64,000 nt of DNA from a virus, in UHGV virus genome UHGV-1351408; one strand, given 5' to 3'. The position numbers were made by a program, and so were the translations under genes. Below are positions 1,799-40,114 of this stretch, in pieces. Each line of letters begins with the position of its first letter. The stretch's first letter is position 1. The notes under the pieces were generated by a model. That model was not told the DNA's origin. It made no database searches and was given only the letters and a program-made list of their open reading frames with translations.

Positions 1799-2182
1799 TT
1801 ATTTGTTAATTTTGAAGATAGTTACATAACCATCGCTGCCGATGATTTGTGATGCTCCAGCTTTTTCTACTTGATAGCCCATATTTTCAAGATGATAAAC
1901 AGCATCATCATAACCATATGCGCCGCCTTGATAACGTCTCTTATCACATCTTACTAATACCTTTCCACGTCCAGCAAGTGCATTTAGTACAGCTTTTTCA
2001 CTTGAAAGTGTACCATCTAACATGGTTGCCGTGTAATGGTTGATTCTATTCCCGTTTACATCATACTTAAAATTGAATGCGTGAACAACGATAATGTTAC
2101 CTTTAAAATTTTCATCAAGTGACTTCTCCAGTGCGTTGCGAAAGTTGTCTTTGTTGATGAATTTAGGTGCACGGTATTTCAT
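1799..2182 (-). CDS. Hypothetical protein (127 aa)
   Basis: ATG start with GGAGA 8 nt upstream; no motif recognised. Confidence 0.55.
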   Translation of the reverse strand: MKYRAPKFINKDNFRNALEKSLDENFKGNIIVVHAFNFKYDVNGNRINHYTATMLDGTLSSEKAVLNALAGRGKVLVRCDKRRYQGGAYGYDDAVYHLENMGYQVEKAGASQIIGSDGYVTIFKINK

Positions 2183-2436
2183 TTTTGAATCTCCAGTTTA
2201 GGACTTTATTTAGTGGGGAAGGTTATTCCCTCCCCGTTGATGCAAATACTAGGTAACCACGTTCAAAGAGTCAAGAAAAATTTTAAAAATATTTTTAGCA
2301 AAACTGTAATGAAACGGGCGCACACGACTACCACAAAACAGAACTATAATCAAGAATTATTTTTCAATCCGCTACAAATTTTTCTGTTGACTTTTATTTC
2401 CAGATGTGGTAGCCTTGTGAGAAATGGCGACATCCC

Positions 2437-2655
2437 CACCTGCACCCACCTACCTGCACAATTCTAAAATGATTTTTCTTGCCCGACCTGAGCGGGGTCT
2501 GCACGTTTTGAAAATGAAAAAGCTCTTTGGAGATTACCTGCACAGTTTGAAAATGAATTTTCTCTTTGGAGTTCAAAATTTTCTCTACAGATTTCTGTCC
2601 AGAACTCTACCTGCACAATCCTGAAATGAAAAAGCCCTCCTTACCTGAAAATTTA
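2437..2655. repeat. Direct-repeat (iteron-like) array in a 520-bp intergenic region
   Basis: Copies of TACCTGCACA-N-TTTGAAAATGA at 2451-2472, 2498-2523, 2534-2557, 2607-2635 and a partial at 2641-2654; two ~34-bp near-tandem units (2499-2532, 2538-2571) also share CTCTTTGGAG. Confidence 0.6.
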
Positions 2656-2701
2656 CCAGATAAGAAAGGCTTAACCTATTGTGAATATTCTACAGAGTTT
2701 C

Positions 2702-3487
2702 TTAGTTCTTTGCGTCTAAGAAGGTTACTTCCGGTGAAGAGAAAATTTCCTCAACATCCTCATCAGTTCTTGCATAGATATATGTATCTGCATCACTGCC
2801 AAATGTTACTGCAATTCTGTGATTGCTCTTCGACAGGTGGGTAACTAGAGCGTTACTTAGAGACATCTTTTCAACCGGAGGGTTACTTTGATGTATCTTG
2901 CCTTTTCTTCGTCTGAAGAGGGTAACTGTATCATCAGTGAACACTACTACACCTGCAAAGTATTCTGGTTCACAGTAGTTCTTCCAACCTGAGCGTAACT
3001 TGTGGTACATCTCACCTTCGTAGACATACAGATACACATCTACATTCTTCATCACCTGATTAATGATAACAGTGACGGCTTGAGGGTCTAGTCCACCGAT
3101 ACCTGCACCAATCATAGGTAACCCAACTTTCTTCAACTGATTGACTTCACAGTATCTGTTAAGCTGTTTCAAAGATGACTCTAAAGCACTGTATCGGGCA
3201 TCTTTACCAGTCTTAAGCTGGGTGTAAAGGTTAGCTATACATCCTTGTCTTAAACGTGCTACAGAGAAATTGCCTAGTAAATTCTCACAGGGCTTGTGGC
3301 CTATGCCACCTGCATACAGATAAACTTCTGTATCAGTCTCGTATGCTTTTGGGTAAAATTTAGAAATCTTGTCAGCGATACCTGCACCCATTAAGTTCAT
3401 ACAGTTGCAACCGTGACCGATGACATCAAACTTACCTTTATCAAATGCTGCAAAGATATCACCGTTGATGATTTTTACAATACCCAT
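2702..3487 (-). CDS. Macro-domain-like (ADP-ribose binding/processing) protein with a ~90-aa C-terminal extension
   Basis: N-terminal pattern GDIF..DVIGHGCNCMNLMGAGIADKI aligns by eye with the macro-domain GDIT..DAIVNAAN..GGGVA region, and a second glycine-rich loop GLPMIGAGIGGLD follows; GGAGA RBS; ATG overlaps the upstream stop (TAAATG). Confidence 0.5.
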   Translation of the reverse strand: MGIVKIINGDIFAAFDKGKFDVIGHGCNCMNLMGAGIADKISKFYPKAYETDTEVYLYAGGIGHKPCENLLGNFSVARLRQGCIANLYTQLKTGKDARYSALESSLKQLNRYCEVNQLKKVGLPMIGAGIGGLDPQAVTVIINQVMKNVDVYLYVYEGEMYHKLRSGWKNYCEPEYFAGVVVFTDDTVTLFRRRKGKIHQSNPPVEKMSLSNALVTHLSKSNHRIAVTFGSDADTYIYARTDEDVEEIFSSPEVTFLDAKN

Positions 3488-5814: not shown

Positions 5815-6510
5815 TCAATGTTTAACTAACATGGTTTTAATGTGTGGAAGGATTCTGTTTACCTTCTGAACATTCTTCTCTGTATCTTCTATAAAACATA
5901 CTATATTAAAGTAAGGCAGAATGCAAGACTGAATCATCCTCACTTTCAAACTTTCTGCACTTATAGAATTATTCCCAAAACCACGCATAAAAAGCATGTA
6001 GTCATGCTCTGTGTTATGCCTTAAAAACATCTCAGTAGGTATTCTCTGAGATTCACCTCTGGCTGTCAAGAGTCCAATGGCAGCATGATTAGCAATTGCA
6101 TCAATAATATTGAAAACATACGTTGGTTTTGCTCTTACAGAGTCAAGAAGATTAGTGTACTGTGAAAATGACCCATCAATCAATTCTGTTGAGCAATCTT
6201 CGTGATTAAAATTTGTAAGAACACCATCAATATCTGCTAAGATGAGGTTACCTTTTTCTACAAGGTCTTTATTGACTATGACTAAACTGTCACGTCTTAC
6301 ACCTATAGATTGTCCAGTCTCTTTGTCCACAACGTTCACAATTGATTCTGAAGTGTGGAACTCTTCAAGTGAACATACAACTTCTCTTGCAGTATCTTCA
6401 AAATCCCTGCACTGTTCTGAAGTCCATACACAGGAATCAAGACCTAACTCATGAGGGTGCAAGTCGTAAGCATGACACAGGACTTCATCAGACTTTCTTA
6501 ATTTTTTCAT
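5815..6510 (-). CDS. HAD-superfamily hydrolase/phosphatase-like protein
   Basis: LILADIDGVLTN matches HAD motif I (DxDGxL); ATG with AGGT upstream. Confidence 0.5.
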   Translation of the reverse strand: MKKLRKSDEVLCHAYDLHPHELGLDSCVWTSEQCRDFEDTAREVVCSLEEFHTSESIVNVVDKETGQSIGVRRDSLVIVNKDLVEKGNLILADIDGVLTNFNHEDCSTELIDGSFSQYTNLLDSVRAKPTYVFNIIDAIANHAAIGLLTARGESQRIPTEMFLRHNTEHDYMLFMRGFGNNSISAESLKVRMIQSCILPYFNIVCFIEDTEKNVQKVNRILPHIKTMLVKH

Positions 6511-32858: not shown

Positions 32859-33115
32859 GTAAGCCTCTTTTAAGTAACTATTAAGTTTTAATCTTTTATC
32901 TTAACGTATTCTATACGTTATACTTTAAAGCTTTTTAAAAGCTATTAAATAATCTTTTAAGAGTTTTAAAGTATCTGTATAGTTAAACTGTTAAGTAACC
33001 TTTTAAGTAAAAACCCACTTCGCAAAGATTAACACCTTGTCAAGTACATTGTCAACTTGCTTTTTATAATTTTTTGCAGTAATGTATGAGGTTAATGATT
33101 TTAGAGGGAGTAAAA
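32859..33115. promoter_or_regulatory. Divergent AT-rich control region between the two early blocks
   Basis: Palindrome TAACGTAT-TCT-ATACGTTA (32902-32920); three CTTTTAAG copies (32867, 32953, 33000); TTGTCAA direct repeat (33038, 33049); TATAAT at 33066-33071. Confidence 0.5.
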
Positions 33116-38443: not shown

Positions 38444-38712
38444 CATCACTTAAGAGTCTTTTAAAAGGGTTTTTAAGTGATGTCTGGTAAAGTATGGTTC
38501 TGTCCGGTAATGCGATGTATGCTATGGTTTGGTGTGGGTAGTTAGTCTCAGCTACATTAAAATGAGACTTACCTTTTTAAAAGGTCTTTAAGAGGGTCTT
38601 TTAATGAGGTGGGGTCTGGTTTGGTATGGTAATGCGAGGTATGGGTCAGGTGGGGTGAGGTGTAGTTAGGTCTGGTATGGGTGGATGGTAGTAGCCACAT
38701 TAAAAATCTACC
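38444..38712. repeat. Two tandem ~130-nt G/T-rich hairpin-bounded elements (units A and B)
   Basis: A 38444-38573: CATCACTTAA/TTAAGTGATG hairpin, C-poor GGTATGG-type run, terminal hairpin AGTCTCA/TGAGACT. B 38574-38712: CTTTTTAAAAGGTCTTTAAGAGGGTCTTTTAATGAGG head, G/T run, terminal hairpin GGTAG/CTACC. Paralogous to 39849-40114. Confidence 0.6.
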
Positions 38713-39855: not shown

Positions 39856-40114
39856 AAGGTCTTTAAACAGGGTCTTTTAATGAGGTTTGTTATGGTCAGG
39901 TATGGTGTGGTGTTGTAAAGTTTGGTGCGGTCAGGTTAGGCTTGGTATGGGTAGTTAATCGAAACTACATAAAAATTCGATTACATCACTTAAGAGTCTT
40001 CTAAGAGGATTTTTAAGTGATGTCTAGTCAGGTATTGTCCGGTATGGCAAAGCATGGTTCGGTTCGGCAGGGCTTGGTATGGAAGGATGGTAGTAGCCTT
40101 ATAAAAAATCTGCC
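39849..40114. repeat. Two tandem ~130-nt G/T-rich hairpin-bounded elements (units B' and A')
   Basis: B' 39849-39982 shares the unit-B head and ends in hairpin AATCGAA/TTCGATT. A' 39983-40114 shares the ACATCACTTAA/TTAAGTGATGT hairpin and ends in hairpin GGTAG/CTGCC. Confidence 0.6.

What the first reader, a model, noticed from the sequence alone, without database searches (positions are those of the whole stretch)
2437..2655. Near-tandem direct-repeat array in a 520-bp intergenic gap
The gap between two minus-strand genes contains at least four copies of TACCTGCACA-N-TTTGAAAATGA plus a partial fifth; two ~34-bp units (2499-2532 and 2538-2571) are nearly identical, 39 bp apart, and both carry CTCTTTGGAG. 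Clustered direct repeats at this density suggest a replication origin, a transcription-factor binding array or a set of phage-specific promoters, rather than a simple spacer.
Basis: seen in the sequence. Interest (0 to 1): 0.55.

Follow-up and report, generated by a model that had tools for sequence, protein, structure and literature searches.

The report
Conserved repeat array in Felix-O1-like phages
A 180-bp stretch between two early genes of a Felix O1-like phage holds four copies of a ~22-base motif that has been kept, in the same place and orientation, across very distantly related phages, so it is a real functional non-coding element, but its job (a small decoy RNA, or a protein-binding DNA site such as an origin) is not yet known.

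Summary
Window 2451-2634 holds four direct copies of TGCAC-N7-AAATGA-(A/T)5, spaced 45/39/73 bp. None is expected by chance and none occurs elsewhere in the 64 kb. The window is a Felixounavirus. The array lies between the terminator of a DarG-like macro-domain gene and the promoters of the last early operon, about 7 kb from the physical genome end. It is conserved in all four Ounavirinae genera and in four far more distant metagenomic lineages (macro protein 35-43% identical). These carry 4-6 copies with an invariant TGCAC-N9-ATGA. The cores are more conserved than the flanking genes. The array is not coding, not a structured RNA, not an Rfam family, not a dispersed promoter class, not the packaging end and not a ToxI homologue. 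In at least five lineages a sigma70-like promoter on the strand opposite to the genes points into the array, and a hairpin follows it. My best reading (about 0.35) is an orphan non-coding RNA with repeated unstructured modules that acts as a multivalent decoy. The main rival (about 0.3 in total) is a DNA-level binding array: an origin, DnaA-like boxes or operators. No paper or record I examined describes it. Function is unresolved and interest is moderate.

The parts
2451..2477 (+). Repeat R1: TACCTGCACAATTCTAAAATGA plus TTTTT
   Evidence: Orthologous to unit 2 of Erwinia phage M7; by my count the two agree at about 31 of 37 positions (sequences).
2496..2522 (+). Repeat R2: GGTCTGCACGTTTTGAAAATGA plus AAAAG (5' flank degenerate)
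2535..2561 (+). Repeat R3: TACCTGCACAGTTTGAAAATGA plus ATTTT
2608..2634 (+). Repeat R4: TACCTGCACAATCCTGAAATGA plus AAAAG. Its A-run is the complement of the U-tract of the minus-strand terminator.
2436..2450 (+). Partial extra copy of the 5' half of the core (CCACCTGCACCCACC). It lies in the variable segment 2397-2450, which many relatives replace with a G-rich allele.
   Evidence: (family D4).
2523..2532 (+). Spacer motif CTCTTTGGAG after R2; a second copy lies at 2562-2571 after R3
   Evidence: Conserved in Felixounavirus, Suspvirus and Mooglevirus; replaced by CTTGCCAGACC-type spacers in Kolesnikvirus.
2632..2672 (-). Intrinsic terminator hairpin of the macro-domain gene. It would also be the 3' hairpin of any + strand transcript of the array.
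   Evidence: 17 pairs plus T-run, minus strand. The G-U pairs make it stronger on the minus strand.
2387..2415 (+). Candidate promoter on the strand opposite to the genes, pointing into the array: TTGACT, 17 nt, TGg-TAGCCT (extended -10)
   Evidence: Read from the sequence. The -35 box is invariant in the enterobacterial genera. Promoter-like sites in the same position and orientation occur in M7 (10/12), L274 (10/12) and L271 (10/12). In L276 I read TTGACT-18-TAGTCT from the sequence; the scan tool did not flag it.
2340..2396 (.). 57-bp block holding two back-to-back -35 boxes; as conserved as the repeat cores
   Evidence: 89% mean pairwise identity.
2325..2353 (-). Candidate gene-strand promoter P2 (TTGATT, 17 nt, TGg-TAGTCG). 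Its -10 region is an inverted repeat of the + strand promoter's -10 region.
   Evidence: inverted repeat I1: 2321-2335 / 2405-2419. The leader GTGCGCCCGTTTC..TTACAG is conserved even in the distant lineage L276.
2246..2274 (-). Main sigma70-type promoter P1 of the downstream operon (TTGACT, 17 nt, TAGTAT) with an AT-rich upstream element
   Evidence: Conserved in all lineages.
2702..3487 (-). Flanking gene: macro-domain protein. Its best NCBIfam match is the DarG macro domain, below that family's cut-off.
1799..2182 (-). Flanking gene of unknown function (phrog_4495). Not conserved next to the array in Erwinia phage M7.

Best explanation
The array is the body of an orphan non-coding transcription unit on the strand opposite to all surrounding genes.

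In the window, a host-type promoter (TTGACT-17-TGgTAGCCT, 2387-2415) would start a + strand RNA near 2422. That RNA would run through the four modules (each UGCAC-N7-AAAUGA-W5) and reach the shared hairpin at 2632-2672, giving a product of roughly 250 nt. The modules are sequence motifs, not folded domains.

I infer that the RNA works as a multivalent decoy or sponge: several identical single-stranded sites that bind and titrate one conserved trans-acting factor early in infection. That factor could be a host RNA-binding protein or ribonuclease, or a conserved phage regulator.

What is shown: the repeats, their deep conservation, their uniqueness in the genome, the absence of coding and of structure, and the recurrent layout of promoter-like site, array, hairpin. 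What is inferred: that the promoter fires, that the RNA accumulates, and that it acts by titration. The partner is unknown.
For: 1. Promoter-like sites on the anti-gene strand point into the array in five lineages whose flanks are otherwise unalignable. These are M7 TTGACG-18-TATACT (10/12), L274 TTGACA-18-TAAAGT with TG (10/12), L271 TTGACA-18-GACAAT (10/12), L276 TTGACT-18-TAGTCT (read from the sequence; the scan did not flag it) and the window's TTGACT-17-TGgTAGCCT. No ORF follows any of them.

2. The motif always has the same polarity relative to that promoter, and a hairpin always follows.

3. Unit length varies widely: 35-47 nt, with some 73-91 nt intervals. It keeps no helical phase between genera. 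That suits independent sites on a flexible RNA better than a phased DNA-protein complex.

4. Four to six copies of a conserved core in variable spacers is the format of known sponge RNAs.

5. The core is far more conserved than the neighbouring proteins. This points to a slowly evolving partner.

6. The neighbourhood has a counter-defence flavour: a DarG-like macro domain and a polynucleotide-kinase-like protein.
Against: No transcript has been observed; I found no transcriptome of these phages in the searchable literature. In the many relatives that carry the G-rich allele, the -10 of the + strand promoter is poor (TAAGAG). Individual promoter-like matches are not significant against shuffles. 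The hairpin is a good terminator only for the gene strand; in Felixounavirus the + strand lacks a U-tract. No partner protein is identified. No bacterial RNA with the same motif exists in E. coli genomes, in plasmids or in Enterobacterales representative genomes. Universal conservation across the whole clade is more typical of a core cis-element than of an accessory counter-defence.
Confidence: 0.35

Rival explanations
1. Replication origin. The repeats are iterons for an initiator. The opposite-strand promoter supplies transcriptional activation or a primer, and the AT-rich promoter block (2275-2400) is the unwinding zone. The replisome is T7-like (primase-helicase plus PolA-type polymerase).
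For: The array is a unique, deeply conserved, non-coding set of direct repeats with flanking A/T tracts. The adjacent AT-rich DNA is in the least stable 0.2-1% of 40-60-bp windows. Promoters read into and away from it. The replisome genes are T7-like.
Against: The spacing of 37-47 bp is not phased and is not conserved. No initiator-like gene is adjacent. GC skew simply follows transcription. The cumulative skew minimum and the most AT-rich DNA are at 32.86-33.09 kb, between the primase-helicase side and the DNA polymerase gene.
Confidence: 0.15
2. A cluster of binding sites for host DnaA or another conserved host DNA-binding protein. It could titrate DnaA, block transcription as a roadblock, or, as proposed for the T5 injection-stop region, hold the entering genome at a boundary about 8% from the end.
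For: On the + strand the core begins with yTATGCAC in four of seven lineages. That matches positions 2-8 of the DnaA box TTWTNCACA. M7 copies match 8/9; one L270 copy, TTATGCACA, matches 9/9 (my count on the sequences). A conserved host protein would explain why the core outlasts phage proteins. In relative D4 the array lies 7.0-7.5 kb from a 581-bp terminal repeat, about 8% of the genome. This resembles the T5 iss region, which holds DnaA boxes and is better conserved than its ORFs (10.1101/866236).
Against: In the window and in all Felixounavirus, Mooglevirus and L271 copies the box is ACCTGCACA (6/9), and the CC is itself conserved. This is unexpected if E. coli DnaA were the ligand. The second invariant block, ATGA nine bases away, has no counterpart in DnaA sites. 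The match was found after I had tried roughly 15 motifs. No two-step entry is known for these phages.
Confidence: 0.08
3. An operator array for a phage-encoded regulator that controls the boundary between two early operons. It would repress or insulate P2, P1 and the opposite-strand promoter, or block read-through from the macro-gene operon.
For: The array always sits between an operon terminator and the promoter cluster of the next operon. The lineage-specific flanks of the core (CC versus TA) suggest a co-evolving phage protein. How these phages time their transcription is unknown (PMC3185647).
Against: The sites lie 35-400 bp from the promoters and do not overlap them. There is no dyad symmetry. 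No DNA-binding protein was recognised among the neighbours.
Confidence: 0.1
4. A type III antitoxin mimic, like pseudo-ToxI of phage PhiTE. The + strand RNA would be cut into ~38-nt units that inhibit a ToxN/AbiQ-type abortive-infection ribonuclease.
For: The format fits: promoter, 4-6 tandem 35-47-nt units, hairpin. Kolesnikvirus has a regular 39/37/37 period. Every unit holds AAAU, which I recall as the ToxN cleavage motif (own knowledge, not checked here). ToxIN plasmids with the P. atrosepticum toxI repeat are common in E. coli and Salmonella. Two Lachnospiraceae toxIN loci have 37-nt repeats with the same TGCAC-N7-AAATGA skeleton.
Against: There is no sequence similarity to ToxI above shuffles, apart from one isolated gapped alignment for Moogle. 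There is no excess of ToxI-like pseudoknot solutions on either strand: z is -0.3 to -1.0, against +7.6 for ToxI. Unit lengths are unequal in most lineages. No cognate bacterial array was found in E. coli genomes, plasmids or Enterobacterales. The window holds no toxin gene. The Lachnospiraceae match was forced by the search pattern.
Confidence: 0.05
5. Tandem promoters, either phage-specific or sigma70.
For: The core contains -10-like GAAAAT and -35-like TTGAAA. In M7 one unit scores TTGCCA-17-GAAAAT, 9/12.
Against: No such motif occurs elsewhere in the 64 kb or elsewhere in related genomes. The hexamer geometry is not conserved between copies or genera. The promoters would fire against all neighbouring genes.
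Confidence: 0.03
6. A small protein-coding gene with internal repeats (ORFs 2424..2624 + or 2394..2576 -), as annotated in some GenBank records.
For: R1-R3 are spaced in multiples of three in Felixounavirus (45 and 39). Some records call a 51-74-aa ORF here.
Against: R4 is out of frame (73). Spacing in other genera is 41/75, 39/37/37, 47 and so on, so no frame is conserved. There is no ribosome-binding site. The called ORFs differ from record to record.
Confidence: 0.01

Closest known systems
ToxI, and the phage PhiTE pseudo-ToxI array (type III antitoxin RNA; PMC3475682, PMC3401426)
   Same: Promoter, then several tandem 35-47-nt units, then a hairpin. It is non-coding, sits in a phage intergenic region and contains A-rich AAAU sites.
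   Different: There is no sequence similarity and no pseudoknot potential. Unit lengths are unequal. No toxin gene and no bacterial cognate were found. The array is universally conserved, not sporadic.
Protein-sponge RNAs with repeated single-stranded motifs (CsrB/RsmZ for CsrA, CrcZ for Hfq/Crc). Comparison from my own knowledge.
   Same: Multiple copies of a conserved motif in variable spacers, irregular spacing, its own promoter and terminator.
   Different: The motif here is long and bipartite (TGCAC-N9-ATGA), lacks GGA or ARN repeats, and is not presented in hairpin loops. The partner is unknown and the element is phage-borne.
Iteron arrays of phage and plasmid origins (lambda ori, P1 oriR, lactococcal phage 'per' origins). 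Comparison from my own knowledge.
   Same: Four to six direct repeats of about 20 bp with A/T tracts, next to AT-rich DNA and promoters, in a non-coding stretch that is unique in the genome.
   Different: The period is 37-47 bp and unphased. There is no adjacent initiator gene. Skew and AT-richness point to another site at about 33 kb.
Phage T5 injection-stop (iss) repeat region with DnaA boxes (Davison, bioRxiv 10.1101/866236)
   Same: A non-coding repeat region about 8% from a genome end, better conserved than the neighbouring ORFs, with DnaA-box-like 9-mers.
   Different: The T5 region is 1.2-1.6 kb, lies inside a 10-kb terminal repeat, is rich in inverted repeats and has paired boxes 3 bp apart. 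Here there are 4-6 direct repeats, the terminal repeat is 0.6 kb, and the boxes are poor in the E. coli phages.
F plasmid sopC centromere (12 tandem 43-bp repeats). Comparison from my own knowledge.
   Same: Direct repeats of about 40 bp, each with one binding core.
   Different: sopC cores are inverted repeats bound by a ParB-type protein. A virulent 88-kb phage has no evident need for partition.

Membership tests
Type III toxin-antitoxin antitoxin RNA (ToxI/CptI/TenpI, or a phage mimic) | Tandem repeats of about 31-60 nt, near-equal in length | tested here: inconclusive
   Kolesnikvirus has 39/37/37. The window has 45/39/73. Distant lineages have 37-47 with outliers of 81-91.
Type III toxin-antitoxin antitoxin RNA (ToxI/CptI/TenpI, or a phage mimic) | Each unit can fold into a compact pseudoknot | tested here: not met
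   In the crude H-type pseudoknot count, ToxI scores z = +7.6 while the window, M7 and Moogle arrays score z = -0.3 to -1.0 on both strands. RNAfold and alifold show no structure.
Type III toxin-antitoxin antitoxin RNA (ToxI/CptI/TenpI, or a phage mimic) | A promoter upstream and a terminator downstream on the same strand, followed by a toxin gene | tested here: not met
   Promoter-like sites and a hairpin are present. No ORF follows the hairpin and the window holds no ToxN homologue.
Type III toxin-antitoxin antitoxin RNA (ToxI/CptI/TenpI, or a phage mimic) | For a mimic: sequence resemblance to a bacterial antitoxin of the host range | tested here: not met
   No similarity to ToxI of P. atrosepticum above shuffles, apart from one isolated gapped alignment for Moogle. 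No hit in 5,426 E. coli genomes or 72,556 plasmids. No Enterobacterales hit in the genome scan.
Iteron-type replication origin | Three or more direct repeats of about 17-22 bp in one orientation | tested here: met
   Four cores of about 22 bp, all in one orientation. Relatives have 3-6.
Iteron-type replication origin | Regular, helically phased spacing | tested here: not met
   Spacings are 45/39/73, 45/41/75, 39/37/37 and 37-47. The phase is not conserved.
Iteron-type replication origin | An adjacent AT-rich unwinding element, and a strand-composition switch | tested here: inconclusive
   AT-rich DNA at 2274-2400 is in the least stable 0.2-1% of windows. The least stable DNA and the skew switch are at about 33 kb.
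Iteron-type replication origin | A cognate initiator gene nearby | tested here: not met
   Neighbours are a macro-domain protein and proteins of unknown function. The downstream gene is not conserved.
Iteron-type replication origin | Origin activity | not testable with these tools
   Needs marker-frequency analysis or an origin-cloning assay.
DnaA-box cluster | 9-mers matching TTWTNCACA | tested here: inconclusive
   My count on the repeat sequences: the window copies match 6/9 (ACCTGCACA, GTCTGCACG); M7, L270, L272 and L274 match 7-9/9.
Dispersed phage or sigma70 promoter class | The motif recurs upstream of genes across the genome with a fixed -35/-10 geometry | tested here: not met
   One locus only. 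The array cores are not among the promoter matches of the scan.
Known RNA families (Rfam 15) | A covariance-model match | tested here: not met
   No hit at gathering threshold over the window. Only chance-level hits at E up to 10 in the gap. No tRNA.
Packaging site or genome terminus | Location at or next to the physical end or terminal repeat | tested here: not met
   Relative D4 has identical 581-bp terminal repeats, and the array lies 7.0-7.5 kb inside. Terminal repeats of 581 and 608 bp are reported in PMC8303462 and PMC4837284.
Protein-coding gene | A conserved reading frame | tested here: not met
   Spacing differs by non-multiples of three between and within lineages.

The most novel reading that the evidence does not exclude
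Felix O1-like phages and their distant relatives express, from an orphan promoter on the anti-gene strand, an unstructured RNA made of 4-6 copies of a bipartite UGCAC-N9-AUGA module. This RNA sequesters a highly conserved host RNA-binding protein or defence ribonuclease. It would be a new class of phage RNA decoy, unrelated in sequence and fold to ToxI-type antitoxins.
Probability: 0.15. Interest if true: 0.75.

Novelty: new variant of a known kind. Interest (0 to 1): 0.5.

Why it matters
Felix O1 is a classical typing and biocontrol phage, and how it times transcription and starts replication is still unknown (PMC3185647). This array is one of the two most conserved non-coding segments of its intergenic gap, and more conserved than the coding sequence beside it. 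It survives in lineages whose neighbouring proteins have diverged to about 35% identity. Every deposited record I inspected leaves it unannotated or covers it with a doubtful small ORF.

Identifying its partner would give one of three things: the origin or a key switch of the early programme, a new host factor that the phage exploits, or a new kind of RNA decoy. It also matters in practice. Engineered Felix O1-type phages should not lose or interrupt this 180-bp element.

Tried and rejected
- **Tandem Repeats Finder** finds nothing, because the units are too irregular.
- **Rfam** gives nothing at the gathering or the permissive threshold, and there is no tRNA.
- **Conserved RNA structure** is absent on either strand apart from the terminator hairpin.
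- **ToxI homology** was rejected by alignment against shuffles (one isolated gapped Moogle alignment aside) and by a pseudoknot count with ToxI as positive control.
- **A bacterial cognate** does not appear. There is no blastn hit in E. coli genomes or plasmids. The two-core pattern scan of 185,579 species genomes gave only unrelated tandem repeats in other phyla, plus two Lachnospiraceae toxIN loci that the pattern itself selects for.
- **A packaging site** is ruled out: the terminal repeat lies 7 kb away.
- **A GC-skew origin signal** is absent at the array.
- **Small-ORF readings** are rejected because no frame is conserved.
- **A T4 RegA-like translational operator or sponge** was considered. 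The motif resembles what I recall of the RegA SELEX consensus, but the window has no RegA homologue.
- **Other motif families checked by eye** all fail at defining positions: sigma54, sigma32 and sigmaE promoters; NtrC, CRP, IHF, Fis and Fur boxes; Chi (GCAGGTGG is 7/8 in one allele only); CRISPR repeats; tRNA remnants.
- **Structure prediction of the macro-domain protein** from a single sequence failed (pLDDT 35), so I did not use it.
- **Literature** searches found no transcriptome of these phages and no earlier description of the array.

Full report
**What is there.** The gap 2183-2701 (519 bp) lies between two minus-strand genes, 2702..3487 and 1799..2182. On the + strand it holds four direct copies of a ~22-27-nt core: R1 2451-2477, R2 2496-2522, R3 2535-2561 and R4 2608-2634. 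The form is (TAC)CTGCAC-R-N6-AAATGA followed by five A/T, and the spacing is 45/39/73 bp. The degenerate 22-mer never occurs in 100 dinucleotide-preserving shuffles. A looser pattern finds the four copies and nothing else in the 64 kb. The 'partial fifth' copy is in fact an arm of the terminator hairpin 2632-2672. Tandem Repeats Finder reports nothing, because conserved cores sit in variable spacers.

**Where it is.** The window is a Felixounavirus (Felix O1-like myovirus, Ounavirinae), 92-96% identical to many E. coli and Salmonella phages. The upstream gene encodes a macro-domain protein whose best NCBIfam match is the DarG macro domain, below that family's cut-off. A polynucleotide-kinase-like gene lies 3 kb further on.

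Read in the direction of the genes (minus strand), the gap runs in this order:
- stop codon of the macro gene;
- a strong intrinsic terminator;
- R4, R3, R2, R1;
- a variable segment (2397-2450);
- a 57-bp block with two back-to-back -35 boxes (2340-2396);
- a sigma70 promoter with an AT-rich upstream element (TTGACT-17-TAGTAT, 2274..2246);
- the next operon.

The minus-strand unit that ends at the macro gene starts about 30 kb away, at a divergent AT-rich region near 33 kb. It carries the primase-helicase, ribonucleotide reductases and rIIA/B. Relative D4 has identical 581-bp terminal repeats, and the array lies 7.0-7.5 kb from one of them. Terminal repeats of 581 and 608 bp have been reported for this genus (PMC8303462 and PMC4837284). 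The array is therefore not the packaging end.

**Conservation.** The gap matches 289 phage records. In Erwinia phages only the repeat region (window 2455-2557) is still detectable, at 73% identity. All four Ounavirinae genera carry the array at the same place and in the same orientation. Felixounavirus and Suspvirus have spacing 45/39/73. Mooglevirus has 45/41/75 or 45/39/77. Kolesnikvirus has a regular 39/37/37. One phage, Si3, has three copies.

Among 21 enterobacterial-phage sequences, mean pairwise identity varies by segment:

| Segment | Mean pairwise identity |
|---|---|
| Repeat cores | 89% |
| Block 2340-2396 | 89% |
| Spacers between cores | 76% |
| 3' end of the macro gene | 67% |
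| Codon third positions of that gene | 59% |

Between the window and Erwinia phage M7 the macro protein is only 31% identical, yet the cores are almost unchanged (about 32 bits of information).

Homologues of the macro protein led to four much more distant metagenomic lineages, with 35-43% protein identity. Each carries an array of 4-6 copies on the gene strand in the form TCAT-N9-GTGCA. Periods are 35-47 nt, with occasional intervals of 81-91 nt. Each array sits after an operon terminator and before the next promoter cluster, but one to five genes away from the macro gene. Across all seven lineages the invariant is TGCAC-N9-ATGA on the window's + strand. The flanks are lineage-specific (CCTGCAC versus TATGCAC).

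Scans of IMG/VR, of 241 million metagenome records and of 185,579 species genomes found the array only in this phage clade. Deposited records leave it unannotated or call inconsistent small ORFs over it. The Felix O1 genome paper lists other repeats but not this one (PMC3185647).

**What it is not.**
- It is not coding, because spacings differ by non-multiples of three.
- It is not a known RNA family or a tRNA.
- It is not a structured RNA. Consensus folding finds only the terminator hairpin. The minus-strand z-score of -2.85 comes largely from that hairpin, and arrays of distant lineages fold no better than shuffles.
- It is not a dispersed promoter class.
- It is not a ToxI relative. The ToxI sequence I used was verified against pECA1039. 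The same toxI repeat sits on 75 plasmids, mostly of E. coli and Salmonella, but the phage array shows no similarity above shuffles apart from one isolated gapped alignment for Moogle.
- It lacks ToxI-like fold potential. A pseudoknot-compatibility count separates ToxI cleanly (z = +7.6) from the phage arrays on either strand (z = -0.3 to -1.0).
- No ToxN or RegA homologue is encoded in the window.
- No similar sequence exists in E. coli genomes or plasmids.

**The most telling context feature.** In every lineage where the flank is available, a sigma70-like promoter on the strand opposite to the genes points into the array, with no ORF behind it:
- M7: TTGACG-18-TATACT, 10/12;
- L274: TTGACA-18-TAAAGT with TG, 10/12;
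- L271: TTGACA-18-GACAAT, 10/12;
- L276: TTGACT-18-TAGTCT, read from the sequence and not flagged by the scan;
- the window: TTGACT-17-TGgTAGCCT, 2387-2415.

The -35 box of the window's promoter is invariant in the enterobacterial genera. Many relatives replace the -10 region with a G-rich allele (TAAGAG). The motif always has the same polarity relative to this promoter, and a hairpin follows.

This is the layout of a small non-coding RNA gene. Together with the unphased, variable unit length and the multi-copy core, it leads me to rank 'orphan non-coding RNA with repeated unstructured modules acting as a multivalent decoy' first, at about 0.35. The weaknesses are plain. No transcript has been seen. 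Individual promoter matches are not significant. The hairpin is a good terminator mainly for the gene strand. No partner is known.

**DNA-level rivals together carry about 0.3.** An origin (0.15) fits the classical picture of a unique direct-repeat array next to AT-rich DNA and promoters, and these phages have a T7-like replisome. Against it, there is no phasing and no initiator gene, and the skew switch and the least stable DNA lie at about 33 kb.

A host-factor site (0.08) is suggested because four of the seven lineages read yTATGCAC, which matches positions 2-8 of the DnaA box. The location, about 8% from the genome end in a region better conserved than its ORFs, also recalls the T5 injection-stop region with its DnaA boxes (10.1101/866236). 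But the E. coli and Salmonella phages conserve CCTGCAC (6/9), and the second invariant block has no DnaA counterpart.

An operator or insulator array for a co-evolving phage regulator (0.10) would fit the lineage-specific flanks and the position between two operons.

**Verdict.** The element is ancient, unique in the genome and under strong purifying selection. No paper or record I examined describes it. An RNA-level role is at least as likely. Function is unresolved, and a handful of standard experiments would settle it.

Noticed in passing
window 2321-2335 and 2405-2419: The -10 regions of the two divergent candidate promoters are a 15-nt inverted repeat: TGTGGTAGTCGTGTG on the minus strand and TGTGGTAGCCTTGTG on the plus strand. 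Both have the unusual form TTGAYT-17-TGgTAGYCK.
   Followed up: partly
window 2310-2330 (minus strand); L276 4249-4272: The sequence just downstream of candidate promoter P2, GTGCGCCCGTTTCATTACAG, is conserved even in a lineage whose macro protein is 43% identical. It may be a conserved leader or a small RNA start.
   Followed up: no
L006 and L007 (relatives), aligned to window 2397-2450: Many relatives replace this segment with a perfect homopurine mirror repeat, GGGGAGAGGGGGAG-TAA-GAGGGGGAGAGGGG. This is a textbook triplex (H-DNA) and G-quadruplex motif. The window's allele is C-rich on the same strand instead.
   Followed up: partly
window 32859-33085: This 227-bp divergent intergenic region lies between the primase-helicase-side operon and the DNA polymerase gene. 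It holds the most AT-rich, least stable DNA of the window and the GC-skew sign change. It also has CTTTTAAGTAAC repeats and a 27-nt imperfect palindrome (32920-32974). It is a better positional candidate for an origin or for the early promoter hub.
   Followed up: partly
window 2702-3487 (minus strand): The macro-domain protein (macro domain at residues 5-168) has the DarG antitoxin macro domain as its best NCBIfam hit, and TARG1/OARD1 as its best solved relatives. It also has an uncharacterised ~95-residue C-terminal part. It may be a counter-defence enzyme against DNA or RNA ADP-ribosylation.
   Followed up: partly
window 5815-6510 (minus strand): A polynucleotide-kinase-like protein (phrog_3970) sits in the same run of small early genes. 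The equivalent gene in distant lineages is a HAD/PNKP-like gene.
   Followed up: no
L165 1-581 and L166 9860-10440 (phage D4, PP886228.1): The 581-bp direct terminal repeat is packed with CTTGTTA/CTGTTAAG-type short repeats. This motif is different from the array studied here.
   Followed up: no
L132 (minus strand) 818-892; L139 555-629: Two Lachnospiraceae MAG loci are textbook toxIN systems: promoter, two 37-nt repeats, terminator, then a ToxN-family gene (Pfam PF13958, E about 1e-47). Their repeat shares the TGCAC-N7-AAATGA skeleton because the search pattern required it.
   Followed up: partly
L142, L135, L164, L150 and other genome-contig hits: Long tandem arrays of 21-nt units such as TTGCACTTCGTGCAAATGATG occur in gut and environmental MAGs. 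They are unrelated to the phage element.
   Followed up: no
window 38608-38688 and 39924-40090: These are runs of GG-N-GG repeats on the + strand, inside the plus-strand operon. They may encode a glycine-rich or repetitive protein segment.
   Followed up: no
L271 4205-4440: In one distant lineage, other short repeat families (CTACGAAGCTGGGGTACG x3, CCAGAAACGC x4-5) and a G-cluster lie between the terminator and the array.
   Followed up: no
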